Shown here: positions 1 through 11,935 of the stretch, piece by piece | How the letters are laid out: each line of letters opens with the position of its first letter | Numbering within the stretch: position 1 is the first letter of the stretch | Assembly (NCBI GenBank): GCA_043737255.1 | Contig: JAYTAY010000001.1 | Coordinates: 1 to 25,346, forward strand | DNA: 25,346 nucleotides | Reading direction: 5' to 3' | Source of the DNA: Luteimonas sp. | GTDB lineage: Bacteria; Pseudomonadota; Gammaproteobacteria; Xanthomonadales; Xanthomonadaceae | Program-made: the position numbers and the translations under genes | Notes under the pieces: model-generated | The model's database searches: none | What the model was told of the DNA's origin: nothing | The model's input: only the letters and a program-made list of their open reading frames with translations

Positions 1-32
1 GAAGCCTCCCCCACGAATAGCAAGCGGCGATG

Positions 33-61
33 AAAAAAAGAGGCCGCGATGCGGCCTCTTT
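33..61 (-). terminator. Rho-independent terminator of the 89..604 gene
   Basis: Perfect stem AAAGAGGCCGC(37-47)/GCGGCCTCTTT(51-61) with a 3-nt loop. The A-run at 33-39 reads as a U-tract on the minus strand. Confidence 0.85.
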
Positions 62-88
62 CAATTGCGAAGACGATTCGAGCGTCGA

Positions 89-604
89 TCACTTCGGACA
101 GGGCACGCCCTCGACCGCCATCGCGGCGGCGTACATCGGGATTGCCGCGATGTCACCCTTCCTTGCGGCGTCGACCGATTCCTTCAGATAGATGCGCGAG
201 CGGCCCTGTGCGTCGAGCTTCGGCGGCACGGCGTTCGCTGGTTTGCGCCAGACGCGCACGACCGCCTGCTGGGTGGCGCAGGTGGCGTTGGGCACGCGGA
301 TCACGTCATTGAATTTCCAGCCGGAGTCCGCGCTGGGTTTGGCCTTGGCCGCATCGACGAACTTGGCGCGCGCCTGGCAGTTGGGGCTGGTGCGGACGAC
401 GGCGAATTTGTACGGCTGCGCGGATTGGCCGGTGAACTGGCCTTCCATGCGGGCGCAGGCTTCGGGGATGGTGCGCAGGGTGTGCACGGCGCCGATGACT
501 TGCGGCTTGGCGGCGTCGCGTTTGATTTCCGGGGTGGGGTCGGCGGCGGAGACCGGCAACATCACTACCAGACCGAGAACAGCAAGCAATGGGGCGAATC
601 GCAT
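89..604 (-). CDS. Secreted hypothetical protein (171 aa, Sec signal peptide, 4 Cys)
   Basis: Start moved from 655 to the ATG at 604 because AGGAGA lies just upstream and the N-terminus MRFAPLLAVLGLVVMLPVSAA is signal-peptide-like. A terminator follows. Confidence 0.8.
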   Translation of the reverse strand: MRFAPLLAVLGLVVMLPVSAADPTPEIKRDAAKPQVIGAVHTLRTIPEACARMEGQFTGQSAQPYKFAVVRTSPNCQARAKFVDAAKAKPSADSGWKFNDVIRVPNATCATQQAVVRVWRKPANAVPPKLDAQGRSRIYLKESVDAARKGDIAAIPMYAAAMAVEGVPCPK

Positions 605-715
605 GGTGGATCTCCTCAAATCAGGTGCGAAGGCTGTCATGGGGCGGCTGAACATGGGCCGTTGACTGGGTCGAGTCCTGAATCATCGGGGCCATCACGC
701 GCGATTTGATCCTTA

Positions 716-864
716 GTAGGGCGGAATCGACGCAATCGCTTCCGCCGCATGTGACGCGTCCGATCAATCCCCGGCGCCCGGAGTTCGCCTCGATCGGAAC
801 GACATGCGGCGGAAGCCGCTACGCGAAGCGCTTTTCAACAGCGAAGCTGGTCATTCCGCCCTAC
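716..864. repeat. GTAG-family REPIN (long inverted REP doublet)
   Basis: Outer IR GTAGGGCGGAAT(716-727)/ATTCCGCCCTAC(853-864), inner IR GCTTCCGCCGCATGT(738-752)/ACATGCGGCGGAAGC(802-816), innermost TCCGATC/GATCGGA. Confidence 0.85.
834..853 (-). repeat. Nested hairpin module, copy 1 (TGACCAGCTTCGCTGTTGAA on minus)
   Basis: Read directly. It lies inside the right arm of the 716-864 REPIN and is absent from the left arm. Confidence 0.8.
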
Positions 865-873
865 GGGATCTCT

Positions 874-894
874 GTACAACAGCGCAGCTGGTCA
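874..894 (-). repeat. Nested hairpin module, copy 2 (TGACCAGCTGCGCTGTTGTAC on minus)
   Basis: Read directly. Same orientation as copy 1, 20 nt away, and abutting the AACCCAGTGGC part of a CGTC-type REP. Confidence 0.8.
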
Positions 895-957
895 ACCCAG
901 TGGCTGTTGGCTTTCAACGGCTTGAGGCGCTGGATCCCCGCGTTCGCGGGATGACGG
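894..957. repeat. CGTC-family REP doublet with truncated left arm
   Basis: Right arm CTGGATCCCCGCGTTCGCGGGATGACGG (930-957) has the typical CGTC-tagged palindrome form. Only AACCCAGTGGC remains of the left arm. Confidence 0.75.
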
Positions 958-974
958 CCATGCTGTCCGCCGAG

Positions 975-1062
975 CGTAGCCCGGGTAAGGCTGCAGGCCG
1001 CACCCGGTGATTTTCGTCACGTCTTGGAAAGCCCCGCATGCGCTGCGCTTACCCGGGCTACG
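975..1062. repeat. GTAG-family REPIN
   Basis: Perfect 15-bp IR CGTAGCCCGGGTAAG(975-989)/CTTACCCGGGCTACG(1048-1062). Confidence 0.85.
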
Positions 1063-1204
1063 AAATGCGTCTCCCCGCGCAACAACGTCCCCACCCCGAA
1101 GGCAGAGCTCTTGACGGTTTGGCTGGTCTGCGGACCCTGTGCGATAGTCGCGGGGTTTTGCAAAGCAGCAATTTCGACATCGGCATCACTCGGGGAGAGG
1201 ATTC

Positions 1205-3280
<2,076 letters not shown>

Positions 3281-3300
3281 TTGTTGTCGCGGAGATGACG

Positions 3301-3334
3301 AAGAGGCCCCGCACGTGCGGGGCTTCTTTTTTTT
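3301..3334 (+). terminator. Rho-independent terminator of hppA
   Basis: GC-rich stem GAGGCCCCGCAC/GTGCGGGGCTTC followed by 8 T (3327-3334). Confidence 0.9.
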
Positions 3335-3346
3335 AGCACCCTCGCC

Positions 3347-3423
3347 TCTTGTAGGAGCGCCCCATGGGCGCGATGAGGCATTCCCGGAAAAGCCCACCGC
3401 ACGCATGGGGCGCTCCTGCAAGA
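3347..3423. repeat. GTAG-family REPIN
   Basis: 20-bp IR TCTTGTAGGAGCGCCCCATG(3347-3366)/CATGGGGCGCTCCTGCAAGA(3404-3423) with one mismatch. Confidence 0.85.
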
Positions 3424-3513
3424 GAGCCGATTCTTCGTTACGTTCCACCACCGCGTAAAATGCGCGCTCCGCATCGCGAGATCAGCCCCCGCAGCGCACT
3501 TTGGAGCATCCCC

Positions 3514-4062
3514 ATGGCCCTTGCCCTTGTCCCCACCGGCAACAATCCACCCGACGAAATCAACGTCATCATCGAGATCCCGAAAGACGCCGAACCGGTC
3601 AAGTACGAAGTGGACAAGGCCAGCGGCGCGATCTTCGTCGACCGCGTGCTGTCCACGCCGATGCGCTATCCCTGCAATTACGGCTACGTCCCGCACACGC
3701 TGTGCGGCGATGGCGATCCCGCCGACGTGCTGGTGCTGATGCCGCTGGCGCTGATCCCCGGTTCGGTGATCCGCGTGCGTCCGGTGGGTGTGTTGCGGAT
3801 GAAAGACGAGGCCGGCGACGACGAAAAAATCCTGGCCGTGCCAATCAACAAGGTGTTCCCGAGTTACGCGCACATCGAGCATCTCGACGACGTGCCCAAG
3901 CACTGGCTCGACCGGATCGGCTACTTCTTCGAGCACTACAAGGACCTGGAAGTCGGCAAGTGGGTCAAGCTCGATGGCTGGGGCGGCCGCGATGAAGCCC
4001 GCCAGGTGCTGCGCGATTCGATCACGCGCTACAACGACACGCCGGACAAGCCGAATTTCTGA
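3514..4062 (+). CDS. ppa: Soluble family I inorganic pyrophosphatase
   Basis: Motifs EIPK, KYEVDK, YPCNYGYVP, DGDPADVLV, DEAGDDEK and FFEHYKDLE. Start at ATG 3514 after GGAG; the ORF's 50-codon extension runs through the REPIN. Confidence 0.96.
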   Translation: MALALVPTGNNPPDEINVIIEIPKDAEPVKYEVDKASGAIFVDRVLSTPMRYPCNYGYVPHTLCGDGDPADVLVLMPLALIPGSVIRVRPVGVLRMKDEAGDDEKILAVPINKVFPSYAHIEHLDDVPKHWLDRIGYFFEHYKDLEVGKWVKLDGWGGRDEARQVLRDSITRYNDTPDKPNF

Positions 4063-4069
4063 TGCATGC

Positions 4070-4135
4070 GTCGGGTGGGTCCCGGCCCATCGCTCATCGT
4101 TAGAAGTACGGCCACTGTGGGCCAAGGCACCCTAC
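4070..4135. repeat. Degenerate GTAG-family REP doublet between convergent genes
   Basis: GTCGGGTGGGTCCCGGCCCATC (4070-4091) and, on minus, GTAGGGTGCCTTGGCCCACAG (4135-4115). Confidence 0.65.
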
Positions 4136-4821
4136 TTGCGATCCCTCTCGCGGACGATGGTCAGGCCGATCAGGCGCGACACCACGGTGGCGATGTAGCC
4201 GACACCGGTGAAGGCTTCCAGCATCACCAGCACGCGCGCGGGTGAACTGATCGGAACGATGTCGCTCAGGCCCACCGAGGACAGCACGCTGAAGCTCAGG
4301 AACAGCAGTTCCATCCAACTTCGCGGCCGCGCCGGTTCGACCATGCCGGTGAAGCTGTCGGGATACCAAGCCTGACAGACGAAGAATGCGTAAGCGAACC
4401 CCCATGCCAGCAGGGTGAACGTCGCACCCGCCGCGAACAGCTCATCGGCCGTGACCCGGTGGTCGTGCAGCATGTACAGGATCAGGCCGCCGGCGGCATA
4501 GAAATACAGCGCCGCCTCCAGCAGAGAAGAGGCGACCAGCAATCCCGGACGATCGAACACGATCGCCATTACCGACAACACCATGGCGGGCAGCGCCAGC
4601 GACCAGGCGATCCAGTTCACCGCGTGGCTGCGATTCACCACCCAGACCGCCAGCGGCACGATCACCAGAGCCACCGCGCTGAACAACACGCGGCCGGTCT
4701 GGGTCTCGTCCATCAATGGATACAGCAGCAGGCTCAGCAATTGTGCCGCCAACAGGATCGCCGACGGATGGCGGCGCGCCAGCGAGGTCCAGTGAGAGTT
4801 ACGTTCGGCCGGAAGCTGCAT
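4132..4821 (-). CDS. Pore-loop ion channel (Ion_trans_2-like C-terminus), paralog 1
   Basis: Several N-terminal hydrophobic helices, then a helix-pore-helix module: WMELLFLSFSVLSSVGLSDIVP...MLEAFTGVGYIATVVSRLIG. Confidence 0.8.
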   Translation of the reverse strand: MQLPAERNSHWTSLARRHPSAILLAAQLLSLLLYPLMDETQTGRVLFSAVALVIVPLAVWVVNRSHAVNWIAWSLALPAMVLSVMAIVFDRPGLLVASSLLEAALYFYAAGGLILYMLHDHRVTADELFAAGATFTLLAWGFAYAFFVCQAWYPDSFTGMVEPARPRSWMELLFLSFSVLSSVGLSDIVPISSPARVLVMLEAFTGVGYIATVVSRLIGLTIVRERDRK

Positions 4822-4954
4822 GGGGCTGGAGTCCTTGGCGAGGGCTCAGTCGATCACAGCCATGCGCGGCAGCGCAACCGGCGAAACGTCGTGGATCACC
4901 GGGGCCGCCAAGCGATCATGGCGGGTTGCAACGAATCGAACTTGCCCCCGAGGA

Positions 4955-5557
4955 TTAGTTCGCGGGCACCGGCTGCGACGACCCGGCGCGATACGGATAG
5001 CGCAGGAAGATTTCCGCGATCGATCGATCGACTTCCAGCGCCCGCTCCTGCGGCGTCTTCTGGATCACGCGACCGATCGCGTCGCCGGTCCACACCAGGC
5101 GATTGCGCGTGGCATCGACCAGATCGACGCTGAGCGTGCCTTCGGTGTAACGGCTGACCCGCGCCTCGTCGTACCAGTAAGGCACCGCCACATAGCTCCG
5201 CGCGCGGTAGTTGTAGTAGTACTGGTAGTCGACCCTGGGCATGGAATACACGTCTGTACGTTCCTCGACGATGCCCTGGAAATTGACGCGTAGGTCAGGC
5301 ACGGTTTCGTTGTAGACATATCCGCGTGCGACCATTTCGCGGTGGAGGTTGGTCTTGATGCGGTCGGTGATGTAGGTCGAATAGCCCGACGCTTCCATCG
5401 CGATCGGCTGGTAGAAAGCGTACGTGCGATAGCGGCCGAAGTCCGCTTCCGGATCGAAATCGGTGCGGATGCGCGGGCCGGTAACGCAACCGGCGAGCAC
5501 TGCCAACAGAGCACACAGCGCAAACATCATGGTCTTGCCGGAACGCGAACGGTTCAT
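4955..5557 (-). CDS. DUF4136-like lipoprotein
   Basis: Lipobox LAGC. Family-typical DFDPEADFGRYRTYAF at the N-terminus and EGTLSVDLVDATRNRLVWTGDA near the C-terminus. Confidence 0.8.
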   Translation of the reverse strand: MNRSRSGKTMMFALCALLAVLAGCVTGPRIRTDFDPEADFGRYRTYAFYQPIAMEASGYSTYITDRIKTNLHREMVARGYVYNETVPDLRVNFQGIVEERTDVYSMPRVDYQYYYNYRARSYVAVPYWYDEARVSRYTEGTLSVDLVDATRNRLVWTGDAIGRVIQKTPQERALEVDRSIAEIFLRYPYRAGSSQPVPAN

Positions 5558-5661
5558 GGGTGTTCTCCGATCAATGGTCTTCAGTGTAAGACCGCAGCGG
5601 CGCTGGTTGGGGCCCGGTCAGCGCACGTGTCGGCAGCGTTGTCGCGAGTTCATGCAGCCGT

Positions 5662-8465
<2,804 letters not shown>

Positions 8466-8505
8466 GGGGTATTGGAACATGCGACCAGTGGCGGGGCTAG
8501 CGCCG

Positions 8506-8741
8506 CATCTCCCTTGGGGAGAAGGTGGCGCGAAACGCCGGACACCCCGAAAGAAGCACCCTTGGGGTCTGGGGGCGGGAAAGTAACTTGCCACGAACGT
8601 CCACTACGACTGAACCTCTACACCCTCATCCATCCTTCTGGCACCTCGCTGTGCGCTCCAACCTTCGCGCCAGCGCTCAGGCGTTCATCGCGCGCGGACC
8701 AGTGCTCCGCAAACGCTCCTCTTCACCCCGAAAGGAGAAGG
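8506..8741. repeat. Degenerate inverted doublet of the CCTTCTCCC-GGGAGAAGG...GGATGAGGG repeat type, with internal insertions
   Basis: Left copy TCTCCCTTGGGGAGAAGGTGGCGCGAAACGCCGGA (within 8506-8542). Right inverted copy CCCTCATCCATCCTTCTGGCACCT (8623-8646)...CTTCACCCCGAAAGGAGAAGG (8721-8741). Confidence 0.6.
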
Positions 8742-8749
8742 AAAAGCCG

Positions 8750-9805
8750 TCATCGCAATGAATCGTTGATCTTCTCGAGCGTGGCGATGCCTGGCGACAA
8801 CTCGGCCGCATTCAAGGTATTCAACGGCGCGGCGACGGTATTGAGATGCCCGTGCAAGTCATCCGCCACCGGATCGACGAACAACAATCCCGTCACCACT
8901 TCGCCCGCCGCCTGCCGCTGCTGGATGATGTTCATCGCAGCGATGCGGTCGCGCGGATCGTAGGCATCGTCCAGCTTGCGCAGGCGCAGTACCGAGCCGT
9001 TGTGTTGCTCGACCTCGATGGTCTCGCCCGCGCGGTAATCGACCGCAATCTCGGCGCGCGGCACCATCACGTCGAGCTGGTTGACGGCGTCGTTGTGTTC
9101 GCGCACGTAGTCGTAGCTTTTGGTGCTGCCGGCGTGGTTGTTGAACGCGACGCATGGGCTGATGACATCCAGGAATGCGGCGCCGCGATGCGACAGCGCG
9201 CCCCTGATCAGCGGCACCAGTTGCGGCTTGTCACCCGAGAAGCTGCGTGCAACATAAGTCGCACCCAGTTGCAGCGCCATCATCACCAGGTCGATCGGAC
9301 TGTCGCTGTTGGCGACGCCTTTCTTCGACATCGAACCCTGGTCGGCGGTCGCGGAAAACTGGCCCTTGGTGAGTCCGTACACGCCGTTGTTCTCGACGAT
9401 GTAGACCATGTTCACGCCGCGCCGGATCGCATGCACGAACTGGCCGATGCCGATCGATGCAGAATCGCCATCACCGGATACACCGAGATAGATCAGTTCG
9501 CGATTGGCGAGATTGGCGCCGGTCAGCACCGACGGCATGCGCCCGTGCACGGTGTTGAAGCCGTGCGACTGGCCTAGGAAGTAGTCCGGCGTCTTGCTGC
9601 TGCAGCCGATGCCCGACAGCTTGGCGACGCGGTGCGGCTCGATGTCGAGTTCCCAGCAGGCCTGGATGATGGCCGCGGAGATCGAGTCGTGGCCGCAGCC
9701 TGCGCACAGCGTGCTGATTTTCCCCTCGTAATCGCGACGGGTAAAGCCGATCGCGTTGCAGCCGAGGGAGGGGTGGTGGAGTTTTGGCTTGGTGAGGTAG
9801 GTCAT
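8750..9805 (-). CDS. 2-oxoacid:ferredoxin oxidoreductase beta subunit (KorB-like, TPP-binding)
   Basis: CAGCGH, SGIGCSS, HGRMPSV, TPP motif GDGDSASIG...ENNGVYGLTKGQ, and ISPCV. The substrate cannot be determined from sequence. Confidence 0.92.
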   Translation of the reverse strand: MTYLTKPKLHHPSLGCNAIGFTRRDYEGKISTLCAGCGHDSISAAIIQACWELDIEPHRVAKLSGIGCSSKTPDYFLGQSHGFNTVHGRMPSVLTGANLANRELIYLGVSGDGDSASIGIGQFVHAIRRGVNMVYIVENNGVYGLTKGQFSATADQGSMSKKGVANSDSPIDLVMMALQLGATYVARSFSGDKPQLVPLIRGALSHRGAAFLDVISPCVAFNNHAGSTKSYDYVREHNDAVNQLDVMVPRAEIAVDYRAGETIEVEQHNGSVLRLRKLDDAYDPRDRIAAMNIIQQRQAAGEVVTGLLFVDPVADDLHGHLNTVAAPLNTLNAAELSPGIATLEKINDSLR

Positions 9806-10017
9806 GACTGCAACTCAACGATGCCGCAAATTCCGAGGTCGTCGTGACCAGCCAGCCGGCTGTTGAACATTACGCGAGGGCGGGAACCCAGCGACTTTTG
9901 TTTCGGGGTTCCAACGCACCCAAGCGAGAGCCGCTGGGTTGACCACCTTACGCTGTTGAACAACGCTTGCGCCTTCGCGGTAATGACGAGCAACAGCGAC
10001 AGCAGCGTCCGCCTCAT
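9802..10017 (-). CDS. Putative 71-aa bridging ORF between alpha and beta genes (REP-derived)
   Basis: Its ATG (10017-10015) overlaps the alpha stop and its TGA (9804-9802) overlaps the beta ATG. It starts after GGGAGA. Translation is not demonstrated. Confidence 0.45.
   Translation of the reverse strand: MRRTLLSLLLVITAKAQALFNSVRWSTQRLSLGCVGTPKQKSLGSRPRVMFNSRLAGHDDLGICGIVELQS
9845..9868 (+). repeat. Nested hairpin module, copy 3 (TGACCAGCCAGCCGGCTGTTGAAC)
   Basis: Read directly. Same ends as copies 1 and 2 with a longer loop. Confidence 0.75.
9940..9961 (+). repeat. Nested hairpin module, copy 4 (TGACCACCTTACGCTGTTGAAC)
   Basis: Read directly. Preceded by GCCGCTGGGT, as copy 2 is preceded by GCCACTGGGT. 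Followed by AACGCTT, as copy 1 is followed by AAGCGCTT. Confidence 0.75.
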
Positions 10018-11855
10018 GCAACTTTCTCCCGTTGCATCGCCGGACGCACTCGCGCCGCAATGGCATCGGCGATGAAACGTGCCGTAACCGGCGTGCCGTC
10101 GTAATGCAACACCGCAACCAGCCGCGCCGGATCGATGCCGAACTCGTTGACCAGCAACGAGCGCAATTGAGCATCGCGGTTCTGTTCGATCACGAACACC
10201 GATTCATGCGCATCGATGAAGGCGCGCACGGATTCAGGAAACGGAAACGCGCGTACACGCAGCGTGTCCAGCGCGATTCCTTCATCGCGCAAACACTCGA
10301 TGGCCTCCTGCATCGCCGGACTGGTCGAACCGAAATAGATCGCGCCATGTTTCGCCGGCACATCCGACTGGCGCACGATCGGCTGCGGCACCAGCGCCTT
10401 GGCGCTGTCGAACTTCTGCAACAACCGTTGCATGTTGTAGACGTAATCTGCACCGCGCTCGGAATATTGCGCCTGCGGATTGCGCGAGGTGCCGCGGGTG
10501 AAATATGCGCCCTTGTCGGGGTGCGTGCCCGGATAGGTGCGGTACGGGATGCCGTCGCCGTCGATGTCCTTGTAGCGCGCGAACTCCCTGCCCGTATCCA
10601 GCACATCGGCGGTCATCACCTTGCCGCGGTCGTAGGCGCGCGCGTCGTTCCACACGAACGGCGCGCACAGGCGCTGGTTCATGCCGATGTCGAGGTCGGT
10701 CATCACGAACACCGGCGTCTGCAGGCGGTCGGCAAGATCGAGCGCGGCGGCGGCAAATTCGAAACACTCATGCGGATCTTCCGGAAACAACAGCACGTGC
10801 TTGGTGTCGCCATGCGACGCATACGCGCACGCCAGCACATCGGACTGTTGCGTGCGCGTCGGCATGCCGGTCGACGGCCCGCCGCGCTGCACGTCGATGA
10901 TGGTCACCGGAATTTCGGCGAAATAGGCCAGGCCGATGAACTCGTTCATCAACGACACGCCCGGGCCCGACGTCGTGGTGAATGCACGCGCGCCATTCCA
11001 CCCGGCGCCGACCACCATGCCGATCGATGCGATCTCGTCCTCGGCCTGGATGATCGCGAACCGGTGCTCGCCGGTGACGGGATCGACGCGGTATTTCTGG
11101 CAATACTTTTCGAACGCCTCGGCCAGCGACGACGACGGCGTGATCGGATACCACGCGCATACCGTCGCTCCGCCGTAGACACAACCTAGTGCGGCTGCGG
11201 CGTTGCCCTCGACGAAGATGCGGTCCCCGACCGCATCGGCCGCCTGCACGCGCAGGCCGATCGGATATTGCAGATGCTCGCGCACCCAGTCGCGGCCCAG
11301 ATGCAACGCCTCGATGTTGGGCTTCAGCAACTTCTCCTTGCCCTTGTACTGCGCAGCGATGAGCATCTCGATCGTCGGCACGTCGATGTCCAGCAGCGCG
11401 CTCAGCGCACCGACATACATGATGTTCTTGAACAACTGGCGCAGGCGCGGATCGCTCCAGGCCTCGTTGCAGATCTGGGTCAGCGGCACGCCGAGGATAT
11501 GGATGTCGTCGCGGAATTTCGACTTCGGCAGCGGCTTGCTGTTGTCGTAGAACAGATAGCCGCCCGGTTCGATCTCGGCGACATCGACGTCCCAGGTCTG
11601 CGGGTTCATCGCCACCATCAGGTCGACACCACCACGCCGTCCGAGCCAGCCGCGTTCGGACACGCGCACCTCGTACCATGTCGGCAAACCCTGAATGTTC
11701 GACGGAAAGATGTTGCGCGGGCTGACCGGCACGCCCATGCGCAGGATCGCCTTGGCGAACAGTTCGTTGGCGGATGCGGAACCGGAACCGTTGACGTTGG
11801 CGAACTTGACGACGAAGTCGTTGGTGGATTGCAGGGGAGCGTGGGCGGGGGTCAT
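10014..11855 (-). CDS. 2-oxoacid:ferredoxin oxidoreductase alpha subunit (gamma-alpha fusion, KorA-like)
   Basis: N-terminal FANVNGSGSASAN gamma-like domain, WYPITPSS, QAEDEIAS, TSGPGVSLM and QRGGPSTGMPT. Start at ATG 11855 after GAGGT. Confidence 0.92.
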   Translation of the reverse strand: MTPAHAPLQSTNDFVVKFANVNGSGSASANELFAKAILRMGVPVSPRNIFPSNIQGLPTWYEVRVSERGWLGRRGGVDLMVAMNPQTWDVDVAEIEPGGYLFYDNSKPLPKSKFRDDIHILGVPLTQICNEAWSDPRLRQLFKNIMYVGALSALLDIDVPTIEMLIAAQYKGKEKLLKPNIEALHLGRDWVREHLQYPIGLRVQAADAVGDRIFVEGNAAAALGCVYGGATVCAWYPITPSSSLAEAFEKYCQKYRVDPVTGEHRFAIIQAEDEIASIGMVVGAGWNGARAFTTTSGPGVSLMNEFIGLAYFAEIPVTIIDVQRGGPSTGMPTRTQQSDVLACAYASHGDTKHVLLFPEDPHECFEFAAAALDLADRLQTPVFVMTDLDIGMNQRLCAPFVWNDARAYDRGKVMTADVLDTGREFARYKDIDGDGIPYRTYPGTHPDKGAYFTRGTSRNPQAQYSERGADYVYNMQRLLQKFDSAKALVPQPIVRQSDVPAKHGAIYFGSTSPAMQEAIECLRDEGIALDTLRVRAFPFPESVRAFIDAHESVFVIEQNRDAQLRSLLVNEFGIDPARLVAVLHYDGTPVTARFIADAIAARVRPAMQREKVA

Positions 11856-11935
11856 GCGGTGACCTCTGCACCAACGTACTGTATGCAAGCCGAAATGCTT
11901 TCAGCCGTCATTCCCGCGCTTAGCTTGCACTTCAT
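11852..11935 (-). CDS. Putative 27-aa bridging ORF (MKCKLSAGMTAESISACIQYVGAEVTA)
   Basis: Its ATG overlaps the flavoprotein stop (ATGA), 4 nt after GGGAGG. Its TGA overlaps the alpha ATG. Translation is not demonstrated. Confidence 0.45.
   Translation of the reverse strand: MKCKLSAGMTAESISACIQYVGAEVTA
11905..11918. repeat. Truncated CGTC-family REP fragment
   Basis: CCGTCATTCCCGCG resembles the start of the CGTC REP arm seen at 930-957 (inverted). Confidence 0.55.

What the first reader, a model, noticed from the sequence alone, without database searches (positions are those of the whole stretch)
823..894. A 20-24 bp hairpin module that sits inside unrelated REP families (4 copies in the window)
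Seen: TGACCAGCTTCGCTGTTGAAA (834-853, minus), TGACCAGCTGCGCTGTTGTAC (874-894, minus), TGACCAGCCAGCCGGCTGTTGAAC (9845-9868) and TGACCACCTTACGCTGTTGAAC (9940-9961). The ends are conserved (TGACCA; GCTGTTGWA), the loop varies, and a CAGC/GCTG stem is intact in 3 of 4 copies. Copies 1 and 4 extend with A(A/G)CGCTT. I found none in coding backbone genes. Every copy interrupts a REP arm: one a GTAG arm whose partner arm lacks it, three CGTC-type arms. Copy 2 marks a junction where a CGTC arm is cut off and joined to a GTAG REPIN. Established: HUH Y1 enzymes (RAYT/TnpA-REP, IS200/IS605 TnpA) act on short hairpins with adjacent tetranucleotides, and several IS (e.g. IS621, IS1397) target REPs. Inference: this is a REP-hitchhiking mini-element, the end or footprint of a REP-targeting transposon or recombinase, or a protein-binding site spread by REPs. 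I do not recognise it as a described element.
Basis: partly seen in the sequence, partly recalled or inferred. Interest (0 to 1): 0.72.

Follow-up and report, generated by a model that had tools for sequence, protein, structure and literature searches.

The report
Hairpin cassette nested inside REP repeats
A 20-29-base DNA hairpin cassette, conserved across the bacterial order Xanthomonadales, has been copied into the tips and feet of many unrelated small palindromic repeats (REPs). This points to an unidentified process that moves very small hairpins into other hairpins.

Summary
All four copies are real (0 expected by chance). The window's genome holds about 63-72 copies, nearly all intergenic. 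They sit in at least seven unrelated repeat contexts and in head-to-tail arrays. In every REP family the cassette is a minority (0-30%), so it belongs to no REP consensus. Sister species carry empty REPs at three orthologous sites. The cassette occurs in 93 of 401 sampled genomes of the order (1 to about 116 copies). Outside the order, 2 of 396 genomes gave one chance-like hit each. None was found in viral contigs or Rfam, and no searched paper holds the sequence.

The anatomy is TGAC, a CAGC/GCTG stem, TTGAA, then ARSC. The stem covaries (A-T to G-C). Loops are TNC, or VTTC in longer forms. On the opposite strand these read GNA and GAAB, the loops of extraordinarily stable "mini-hairpin DNA".

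Best reading (about 0.4): a discrete cassette copied in single-stranded DNA into REP hairpin tips and feet by an unknown enzyme, then co-amplified with its host REP. Y1 transposases do not track it. Passive recombinational exchange and a host-factor site remain open. It is a new variant of the REP/BIME/NIME kind.

The parts
834..853 (-). Module copy 1 (20 nt, genome consensus, TTC loop)
   Evidence: Exact pattern hit; identical 20-mer in families A, B, C and G genome-wide
826..833 (-). 3' extension AAGCGCTT of copy 1 (long form of the unit)
   Evidence: Positions +20 to +26 are conserved across 63 copies (A, R, S, C.., T)
796..865 (-). Host GTAG REP (family A, GGCGGAA...TTCCGCC), filled; 54-nt core instead of 28
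   Evidence: about 25 empty 28-nt cores against 5 filled 54-nt cores; the orthologous REP in G002:C90 is empty
716..752 (+). Partner GTAG REP of the same REPIN, empty
875..894 (-). Module copy 2 (TGC loop, GTTGTA end) at the foot of a CGTC REP arm that is cut off at the module's 3' end
   Evidence: The usual continuation (AAGCGCTTCC...GGGAATGACG) is missing and the GTAG REP follows. The same truncation occurs at C329:1730
895..956 (-). Rest of that CGTC REPIN: tail ACCCAGTGG (895-903), spacer, and empty partner arm (927-956)
   Evidence: Sequence; compared with B-type elements
9845..9867 (+). Module copy 3 (23-nt form, 5-bp stem CAGCC/GGCTG) inserted right after the CGTC tag
   Evidence: F-type context also at C276:232 and C348:1487; predicted 5-bp hairpin
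9840..9897 (+). Host CGTC REP arm (tag 9840-9844, stem and tail 9868-9897), filled
   Evidence: The orthologous arm is empty in G001:C129 and G003:C54
9940..9960 (+). Module copy 4 (21 nt, stem degraded to CACC/GCTG) at the stem foot of the right CGTC arm
   Evidence: the orthologous arm is empty in G001:C129
9961..9988 (+). Extension CAACGCT plus right CGTC REP arm ending in AATGACG
   Evidence: B-type architecture, 14 copies genome-wide
976..1062 (.). Neighbouring GTAGCCCGGGT REPIN without module (context; the related GGAGCGCAGC subfamily is filled in about 12-14 copies elsewhere)

Best explanation
The module is a discrete cassette of about 24-29 nt. Its anatomy is (T/A)GAC, a CAGC stem, a TNC or VTTC loop, GCTG, TTGAA, then ARSC, with or without GCT. 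It is not part of any REP. Copies were placed repeatedly into the loop, the stem foot or the tag-stem junction of pre-existing REP hairpins, and head-to-tail next to each other. Afterwards they were co-amplified with their host REP or REPIN. The conserved flanks, the covarying stem and a loop restricted to sequences that form hyperstable DNA mini-hairpins on the opposite strand all suggest one thing: the active form is a single-stranded DNA hairpin, recognised at its base by a trans-acting enzyme that cuts at defined ends. Extruded REP hairpins offer the single-stranded tips and junctions that serve as targets. Shown: discreteness, recurrent gain in unrelated contexts, filled/empty differences between species, order-wide but patchy distribution, lineage-specific variants, stem covariation and the loop rule. 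Inferred: the ssDNA form, enzymatic insertion and the identity of the enzyme, which is unknown and apparently not a resident Y1 transposase.
For: (1) Discrete ends. The same 5' end (W-GACC) and the same 3' end (TTGAA + ARSC) occur in at least 7 unrelated contexts of one genome. Arrays are perfect concatemers of a 25-26-nt unit. (2) Not integral to any REP. The module is a minority in every family and absent from the dominant REP (0/231) and from the RAYT-flanking REP (0/16). (3) Several positions within one family. Family A carries it at the 5' junction, at the 3' junction, or at both (C317, C501). CGTC REPs carry it in the loop, at the foot, or after the tag. (4) Orthologous REPs are empty in sister species: G002:C90; G001:C129 and G003:C54; G003:C35 and G001:C243. 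(5) Distribution. It occurs in 93/401 genomes of the order at 1 to about 116 copies, with reversed-pattern controls of 0-1. Outside the order, 2/396 genomes gave single atypical hits. Named hosts include Dyella, Rhodanobacter, Lysobacter, Luteimonas, Pseudoxanthomonas, Stenotrophomonas and Thermomonas. (6) Each lineage has its own dominant loop variant across contexts: TTC in this genus, TCC in genus g33, CATTCG in G380, CCTTCG in G310. (7) Stem covariation. In G310, 100 listed copies split A-T 57, G-C 36, G.T 5 and A.C 2. CAACC/GGTTG variants occur in G380 and in G000 C490. Stem extensions are always complementary. (8) Loop rule. 27 of 30 triloops in G000 are TNC, which is GNA on the other strand. 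All four N dominate somewhere. Longer loops are mostly VTTC, which is GAAB. Only GNA triloops, and to a lesser degree GAAB loops, form mini-hairpin DNA, with Tm 70-76 C for GCGNAGC (PMC13037366). (9) I saw no target-site duplication at the junctions compared, and 1-4 host bases are replaced. This fits ssDNA or HUH-like or recombinase chemistry, not DDE transposition. (10) Two CGTC arms are truncated exactly at the module's 3' end.
Against: No enzyme was identified. Y1_Tnp (RAYT/IS200) occurs in 290/401 genomes and does not track the module. G318 (16 copies), G384 (11), G141 (8), G081 (6) and G405 (6) show no match. TnpB was found in 0 of 5 high-copy genomes. No copy flanks a transposase gene. 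Junctions are not clean insertions: one pyrimidine or the whole loop of the host is replaced. At C213 the orthologous empty REPINs belong to another stem subfamily, so REPIN replacement rather than cassette insertion is possible there. Copies of one genome are not independent events, so the covariation and loop counts overstate the number of events. In G310 the two stem types go with two positions, that is, two lineages. Nearest-neighbour folding gives only -2.2 to -2.6 kcal/mol, with unremarkable z-scores. No empty allele was seen within the species' own population at 9591-10622.
Confidence: 0.4

Rival explanations
1. Passive building block. The module has no mobility of its own. It is shuffled between REP families by template switching, microhomology-mediated recombination or gene conversion at replication forks stalled at palindromes, and it then spreads only because its host REPs, REPINs or MITEs amplify.
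For: Context-specific signatures show co-amplification with the host: AGACC in all family D copies and GTTGTA in many B copies; the GC-type stem in loops and the AT-type stem at feet in G310. Junctions replace host bases rather than inserting cleanly. No cognate enzyme was found. CGTC REPs themselves lack a dedicated transposase (PMC3733652). Neisseria NIMEs are comparable mosaics.
Against: The ends of the transferred unit are the same in at least 7 unrelated contexts and across families of bacteria. Random template switches should carry variable donor flanks. Flanks, stem and loop type are conserved across the whole order while host REP arms differ completely. That conservation needs a constraint on the module itself.
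Confidence: 0.28
2. Host-function site. The hairpin is bound by a host factor of Xanthomonadales, for example a nucleoid protein as with the IHF site of E. coli BIME-1, or a primase or SSB-excluding priming signal like the mini-hairpins in G4 ori and RSF1010 ssiA. REPs that carry it are retained or favoured.
For: Sequence conservation across at least three families of the order. Mini-hairpin sequences are known at priming sites (PMC13037366). BIME-1 linkers bind IHF (PMC2817692). The module is promiscuously recruited by REPs, a TIR-MITE (L012, L013) and heptamer runs.
Against: Distribution is patchy, for example 0 of about 20 genomes in the large genus g80, and copy number runs from 0 to 116. 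Sites are not conserved at orthologous positions even within the genus. Lineage-specific homogenised variants suggest amplification, not site-by-site selection. Loop length varies from 3 to 7 nt, which argues against a dimer on double-stranded half-sites.
Confidence: 0.15
3. Footprint or solo end of an insertion sequence that targets REP loops, as IS1397, ISKpn1, IS621 or ISPpu9/10 do.
For: REP loops are known IS targets (references in PMC2817692). The module starts with TG.
Against: The unit is only 20-29 nt and uniform, with no TSD seen by eye. No IS whose ends contain the module was seen next to any copy examined. Arrays are perfect concatemers. Bacterial IS excision does not leave such footprints (established knowledge).
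Confidence: 0.04
4. Structured RNA element: an mRNA stabiliser, a processing site or a protein-binding RNA hairpin carried by transcribed REPs.
For: The stem covaries and G.T pairs occur (5/100).
Against: There is no orientation bias relative to the upstream gene (34 same, 25 opposite), and intergenic classes match the background. No Rfam match was found. The loop rule matches DNA mini-hairpins on one strand, yet both orientations are transcribed equally.
Confidence: 0.05

Closest known systems
E. coli BIMEs (REP/PU clusters with extra-REP motifs such as the IHF-binding L motif of BIME-1/RIB/RIP)
   Same: Short conserved non-REP motifs are combined with REPs into mosaics. They are extragenic and vary between strains.
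   Different: BIME motifs lie between two REPs. Here the module lies inside the REP hairpin (loop, foot or tag junction), is itself a hairpin, occurs in many unrelated REP families, and is conserved across an order. No host factor is known.
Neisseria intergenic mosaic elements (NIMEs) built from dRS3 = CGTC-1 REPs (Di Nocera et al. 2013, PMC3733652)
   Same: The host CGTC REPs here have the dRS3-like ATTCC-N-GGAAT core. Repeat units are interleaved into mosaics. No dedicated transposase is known for CGTC REPs.
   Different: RS units of NIMEs are 50-150 bp and sit between dRS3 copies. The module is 20-29 nt and nested in the hairpin, and it also occurs in GTAG REPs.
REPINs and REPs mobilised by RAYT (TnpA-REP, Y1 HUH) (Nunvar 2010, PMC2817692; Bertels and Rainey 2011, PMC3116915)
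   Same: Small extragenic palindromes with lineage-specific amplification and a presumed ssDNA hairpin substrate.
   Different: The module has no GTAG or CGTC tag and does not flank a RAYT gene. It is present in genomes with no Y1_Tnp match and is conserved far beyond genus level.
REP-loop-targeting insertion sequences (IS1397, ISKpn1; IS621 and other IS110-family elements)
   Same: The same habitat: insertion into REP hairpins.
   Different: Those are kilobase-sized autonomous IS with transposase genes. The module has no coding capacity and no IS-like ends.
Mini-hairpin DNA GCGNAGC / GCGNNAGC (Hirao and co-workers; review PMC13037366)
   Same: The bottom strand of the short form reads CA-GCGNAGC-TG, with all four N seen. 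Longer forms have C-GAAB-G loops, exactly the loop sets reported to form the stable structure.
   Different: That is a physico-chemical motif known from phage and plasmid priming sites, not a dispersed repeat. No link to REPs has been described.
Earlier notes of this scan (unchecked AI notes): e1-4851780, hairpin cassettes at tips of REP hairpins in a Nitrospirota genome; e1-782040, a hairpin with fixed 13-nt loop and variable stem in many phyla
   Same: The same phenomenon: a conserved small unit occupying the loop of other repeat hairpins, with the enzyme unknown.
   Different: Different sequences and taxa. The 13-nt loop motif also occurs in this genome and loosely resembles the module's flanks (11 of 13 positions by my own count, by eye). 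I did not test that resemblance.

Membership tests
GTAG- or CGTC-tagged REP (Di Nocera 2013) | Unpaired GTAG or CGTC tag at one end of the palindrome | tested here: not met
   The module is flanked by TGAC and TTGAA and has no GTAG or CGTC of its own
GTAG- or CGTC-tagged REP (Di Nocera 2013) | Short GC-rich imperfect palindrome, extragenic, many copies | tested here: met
   4-6-bp covarying stem; 63-72 copies; 68/72 intergenic
REPIN-RAYT system | Repeat flanks a single-copy RAYT gene, and the RAYT is present wherever the repeat is | tested here: not met
   The RAYT at G000:C141 is flanked by GTAGGGTGGGCAC REPs without the module. Module-bearing genomes G318, G384, G141, G081 and G405 have no Y1_Tnp match
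BIME/NIME-type mosaic motif | Recurrent short motif physically combined with REPs in variable mosaics | tested here: met
BIME/NIME-type mosaic motif | Bound by a host factor (IHF for BIME-1) | not testable with these tools
   By eye, no IHF consensus (WATCAANNNNTTR) in either strand; binding was not assayed
MITE | Terminal inverted repeats, target-site duplication, 50-500 bp | tested here: not met
   Unit of 20-29 nt; no TSD seen at the filled/empty junctions compared by eye
IS200/IS605-derived non-autonomous element (PATE) | Left and right subterminal hairpins plus a cognate Y1 TnpA (often TnpB) in the genome | tested here: not met
   Single hairpin; Y1 presence does not track the module; TnpB 0/5
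Integron attC site | R'' RYYYAAC and R' GTTRRRY core sites, located in cassette arrays | tested here: not met
   The module's ends do not fit either core by inspection; copies are dispersed in REPs
Any Rfam RNA family | Covariance-model match | tested here: not met
   Only a TPP riboswitch elsewhere in the window; nothing at or near the modules, even at E<=1
Mini-hairpin DNA motif | G-C-closed GNA triloop or GAAB loop | tested here: met
   Bottom-strand loops are GAA, GCA, GTA or GGA; 27/30 triloops in G000. Longer loops are GAAT, GAAC or GAAG. Rule taken from PMC13037366. Stability was not measured

The most novel reading that the evidence does not exclude
The cassette is an independently mobile element of only about 24-29 nt, among the smallest mobile DNAs proposed. 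It folds as a hyperstable ssDNA mini-hairpin and is inserted by a still unknown, order-wide enzyme specifically into the single-stranded tips and junctions of other extruded hairpins. Similar notes from other phyla in this scan would then mark a general, undescribed 'hairpin-into-hairpin' insertion pathway in bacteria.
Probability: 0.3. Interest if true: 0.8.

Novelty: new variant of a known kind. Interest (0 to 1): 0.6.

Why it matters
REPs are among the most abundant non-coding repeats of bacteria, yet how they arise, diversify and move is only partly understood. CGTC-type REPs have no known transposase at all. A discrete, order-wide cassette that recurs in the loops and feet of unrelated REP families gives a sequence-defined handle on a process acting on hairpin tips. 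Its conserved flanks, covarying stem and loops limited to the DNA mini-hairpin set make concrete predictions. The active form should be one particular DNA strand. There should be a binding or cleaving protein. New insertions should land in REP tips. It also warns annotators that REP surveys which discard 'unusual loops' miss this layer of structure.

Tried and rejected
**Database and literature searches that found nothing**
- Rfam at gathering and at E<=1 on the window and on related loci gave nothing relevant.
- A full-text search for the module sequence found 0 papers. The REP papers of Nunvar and Di Nocera do not mention it. Di Nocera et al. discarded REPs with unusual loops.
- The IMG/VR scan gave 92 pattern hits, none module-like.
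- BLAST of an array against plasmids and phages gave no match; the low-complexity filter may have hidden arrays.

**Enzyme candidates**
- Y1_Tnp profile across 401 genomes shows no correlation with the module.
- TnpB was found in 0 of 5 high-copy genomes.
- RAYT and IS200 loci carry no bordering module. One IS200 in G310 lies about 190 bp from a module-bearing REPIN, which is probably coincidental.

**Population data**
- Contigs from three other samples laid on 1-11000 span 9591-10622 without gaps, so no empty allele was seen there.
- Contigs break at 753-836.
- One X6 contig joint at 825 continues like an empty family-A REP, but it may come from a paralogous copy. I do not use it.

**Structure prediction**
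- Thermodynamic folding gave z-scores of -0.3 to -1.9, which is not informative for a 4-bp stem. The parameters lack mini-hairpin bonuses.

**Readings rejected by inspection of the sequence**
- Sigma-70 promoter: TTGACC is present but there is no -10 element.
- IHF site, integron attC cores, Xanthomonas PIP box (TTCGC spacing is 13, not 15), FadR-like palindrome, Chi and Ter similarity.

**Not settled**
- Replichore bias: strands in the single-contig genomes G380 and G358 show no clear pattern, and the origins were not located.
- ISfinder was not available.

Full report
**1.

The pattern TGACCA-N5-12-GCTGTTGWA hits the window four times, at 834-853 (-), 875-894 (-), 9845-9867 (+) and 9940-9960 (+). 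None appeared in 100 dinucleotide-preserving shuffles (sequences).
- The stem CAGC/GCTG is intact in three copies and broken in the fourth.
- Copies 1 and 4 carry the A(A/G)CGCTT extension.
- Copy 1 lies inside a GTAG REP whose partner arm (716-752) lacks it.
- Copies 2-4 lie in CGTC-type arms.
- Copy 2 ends a CGTC arm that is truncated exactly at the module's 3' end.

The window's genome (G000) is a 2.46-Mb, 509-contig assembly with 62.6% GC and about 83% completeness. It holds 35 exact copies. Allowing up to 3 substitutions to the consensus TGACCAGCTTCGCTGTTGAA gives 63 copies, against 0 in the reversed genome. A combined pattern gives 72 copies, and 68 of those lie outside crude GC3-based gene calls.

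Conservation extends one or two bases to the 5' side (G-N-W). On the 3' side it covers A-R-S-C, often followed by G-C-T.

**2. It is a unit of its own, not part of a REP**

In G000 the module occupies at least seven unrelated contexts:
- Inside GTAG REPs with GGCGGAA arms (family A): 8 clear copies, at the 5' inner junction, the 3' inner junction, or both.
- Inside GTAGCCCGGGT REPs (family D): 14 copies.
- Inside GTAGGTGCGA REPs (family E): 2 copies.
- In CGTC REPs at three places: the loop (6), the stem foot (14), and directly after the tag (3).
- In head-to-tail arrays next to a longer composite element (family C): 13 copies.

It is a minority everywhere:

| Context | Filled / total |
|---|---|
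| CGTC arms | 16/198 |
| Family A | 3/37 |
| Family D | 12/60 |
| Family E | 1/160 |
| Dominant REP (GTAGGAGCGCC type) | 0/231 |
| REP flanking the only RAYT gene | 0/16 |

Filled and empty members of one family have the same arms. The unit replaces one pyrimidine at a junction, or the whole 4-nt loop, and I saw no target-site duplication at the junctions I compared by eye.

Arrays in sister genome G002 are perfect concatemers with a 25-26-nt period. This fixes the unit at roughly T-TGACC...TTGAA-ARGC.

**3. Filled/empty differences between species**

At the orthologue of window 796-865, G002:C90 has the same GTAG REPIN with both arms empty.

At the orthologue of 9806-10013, G001:C129 has a complete empty CGTC REPIN. 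G003:C54 has an empty left arm and then its contig ends.

At G000:C213, G003:C35 and G001:C243 have empty CGTC REPINs in the same spacer. Their stems belong to another subfamily, so REPIN replacement is possible there.

Elements at C488 and C72 are absent from the sister spacers.

Claims that cite G001 rest on an unpublished genome. Each is also supported, at least in part, by G002 or G003.

Within the species' own population (sediment, glacier and soil metagenomes), contigs from three further samples span 9591-10622 without gaps. The insertions there are therefore older than that population.

**4. Distribution**

All four other species of the genus carry the module, with 2 to 56 exact copies.

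In an even sample of the order, 93 of 401 genomes have it. Counts range from 1 to 57 with the strict pattern, and reach about 110-116 in G310 when the stem is relaxed. Reversed-pattern controls give 0-1 per genome.

Presence is concentrated in three families and is patchy within them. For example, none of about 20 genomes of the large genus g80 has it.

Outside the order, 2 of 396 genomes of the class gave single hits with atypical loops.

A capped scan of named genomes found it in Dyella, Rhodanobacter, Lysobacter, Luteimonas, Pseudoxanthomonas, Stenotrophomonas, Thermomonas, Dokdonella and Pseudolysobacter, plus many Lysobacterales MAGs. The remaining hits look like chance matches inside genes.

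In those genomes it again sits in the loops or feet of locally different palindromes:
- GTAGAGCGGCC-type and GTAGGAGGGG-type REPs
- CCCCCT/AGGGGG hairpins
- runs of GGGATTC heptamers
- a roughly 200-bp TIR-MITE carrying three copies

Nothing module-like was found in IMG/VR. Plasmid and phage BLAST of an array gave no match. Rfam gave nothing. No searched paper holds the sequence. Di Nocera et al. 2013 state that REPs with unusual loops were discarded from their census.

**5. Anatomy points to a hairpin, probably in single-stranded DNA**

The flanks TGAC and TTGAA and the first four stem pairs are conserved across the order. Loop length varies from 3 to 7 nt, which is hard to reconcile with a dimer on duplex half-sites.

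The stem covaries:
- In G310, 100 listed copies split into A-T 57, G-C 36, G.T 5 and A.C 2 at the second pair.
- G210 shows the same two types.
- CAACC/GGTTG variants occur in G380 and in G000.
- Stem extensions (C-G, CC-GG, GC-GC) are always complementary.

Copies within a genome are not independent. In G310 the G-C type goes with the loop position and the A-T type with the foot position. These counts therefore reflect a few compensated lineages, not a hundred events.

The loop is not free:
- 27 of 30 triloops in G000 are TNC.
- Each of TTC, TGC, TCC and TAC dominates in some lineage.
- Longer loops are mostly VTTC.

On the opposite strand these read GNA and GAAB. According to the review PMC13037366, only GNA among all 64 triloops gives the extraordinarily stable mini-hairpin DNA (GCGNAGC, Tm 70-76 C). 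GAAB loops give a somewhat weaker version. The short form of the module reads CA-GCGNAGC-TG on its bottom strand.

Standard nearest-neighbour folding, which lacks these bonuses, predicts only -2.2 to -2.6 kcal/mol.

There is no orientation bias relative to neighbouring genes (34 against 25), and no preference for gene 3' ends. This argues against a strand-specific RNA role.

**6. Dynamics**

Each lineage has its own dominant loop variant, shared across different host contexts:

| Lineage | Dominant loop |
|---|---|
| This genus | TTC |
| Genus g33 | TCC |
| G380 | CATTCG |
| G310 | CCTTCG |
| G024 | CATGCG |

Context-specific signatures show that the module also rides along when its host REP amplifies. 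All family D copies start AGACC, and many foot-type copies end GTTGTA.

Together these show two layers. Occasionally the cassette is transferred or homogenised between contexts. More often it is co-amplified with the host.

**7. What moves it is unknown**

The single Y1 transposase gene of G000 is flanked by a different REP.

Y1_Tnp occurs in 290 of 401 genomes of the order and does not track the module. G318 (16 copies), G384 (11), G141 (8), G081 (6) and G405 (6), all at least 99% complete, show no match.

TnpB is missing from five high-copy genomes.

CGTC REPs, the most widespread hosts of the module, are themselves reported to lack a dedicated transposase (PMC3733652).

**8. Verdict**

The best-supported reading (about 0.4) has three steps:
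- The module is a discrete hairpin cassette.
- It is copied, most likely as single-stranded DNA and by an unidentified enzyme, into the tips and feet of extruded REP hairpins and next to itself.
- It is then co-amplified with its hosts.

A passive origin by template switching or gene conversion among palindromes (about 0.28) and a host-factor or priming site recruited by repeats (about 0.15) are not excluded. An IS footprint and an RNA element are unlikely.

The closest known systems are the mosaic REP assemblies of E. coli (BIMEs) and Neisseria (NIMEs built on dRS3/CGTC-1), and REPIN-RAYT systems. The module fails the defining tests for REP (no tag), REPIN (no RAYT link), MITE, PATE and attC. 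I file it as a new variant of the mosaic-repeat kind.

Earlier unchecked notes of this scan describe comparable cassettes at REP tips in other phyla. If these share a mechanism, the phenomenon is general.

Noticed in passing
window 8368-8468 (-): TPP riboswitch (RF00059, 60.9 bits, above the gathering score).
   Followed up: no
window 9806-10013: The CGTC REPIN carrying module copies 3 and 4 lies between two co-oriented minus-strand ORFs (8750-9805 and 10014-11888). It is therefore inside a probable operon. The sister species G001 has an empty REPIN at the same junction.
   Followed up: partly
G000:C72:5940-6370 (L262); L009-L011 (G002); L100:5261-5841, L131, L028, L104, L051: A long composite repeat of about 250-430 bp is conserved across genera. 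It has the module or a module array at one end. Then come a GC hairpin, an AGTCACTTTTCTTTG/CAAAGAAAAGTAAC hairpin, CAAAAGAAA, and two hairpins with CATCC-type loops. In L100 two copies face each other. No Rfam match. Its nature is unknown.
   Followed up: partly
L012 (G037:C23:57600-58150), L013 (G037:C26:3500-4050): A roughly 200-bp MITE-like element with terminal inverted repeats (GGGAACC..TGAATAAGTC) contains three module copies, one inverted pair and one direct. Relatives are seen in L095 and L099.
   Followed up: no
G000 genome-wide, e.g. C176:1232, C332:3815; L007:270-300 (G002): Hairpins of the type TCC-TGAGCYTGTCGAA-GGA carry the fixed 13-nt loop that an earlier scan note (e1-782040) reports from many phyla. 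That loop's ends (TGA..CTGT.GAA) loosely resemble the module's flanks.
   Followed up: partly
G000 genome-wide: The dominant REP family is GTAGGAGCGCCCCATGGGCGCGATG-like (about 100-230 hits, depending on the pattern). It never carries the module.
   Followed up: partly
G000:C141:3872-4222 (L152): The only Y1_Tnp (RAYT-like, 230-aa frame) of the assembly is flanked on both sides by GTAGGGTGGGCAC-type REPs.
   Followed up: partly
L079, L108, L118, L121 (Rhodanobacter and relatives): Runs of the heptamer GGGATTC are interrupted by a module plus AGCC.
   Followed up: no
L163-L166 (G310): Clusters of CGTC REPINs with 0-3 modules each are bracketed by inverted copies of a motif like AGAGCCTGTTCAA. 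This suggests that the REPIN pairs there are the inside of a larger MITE-like unit. An IS200-like gene with its own CCCCGGC hairpins sits about 190 bp from one such REPIN (L153).
   Followed up: no
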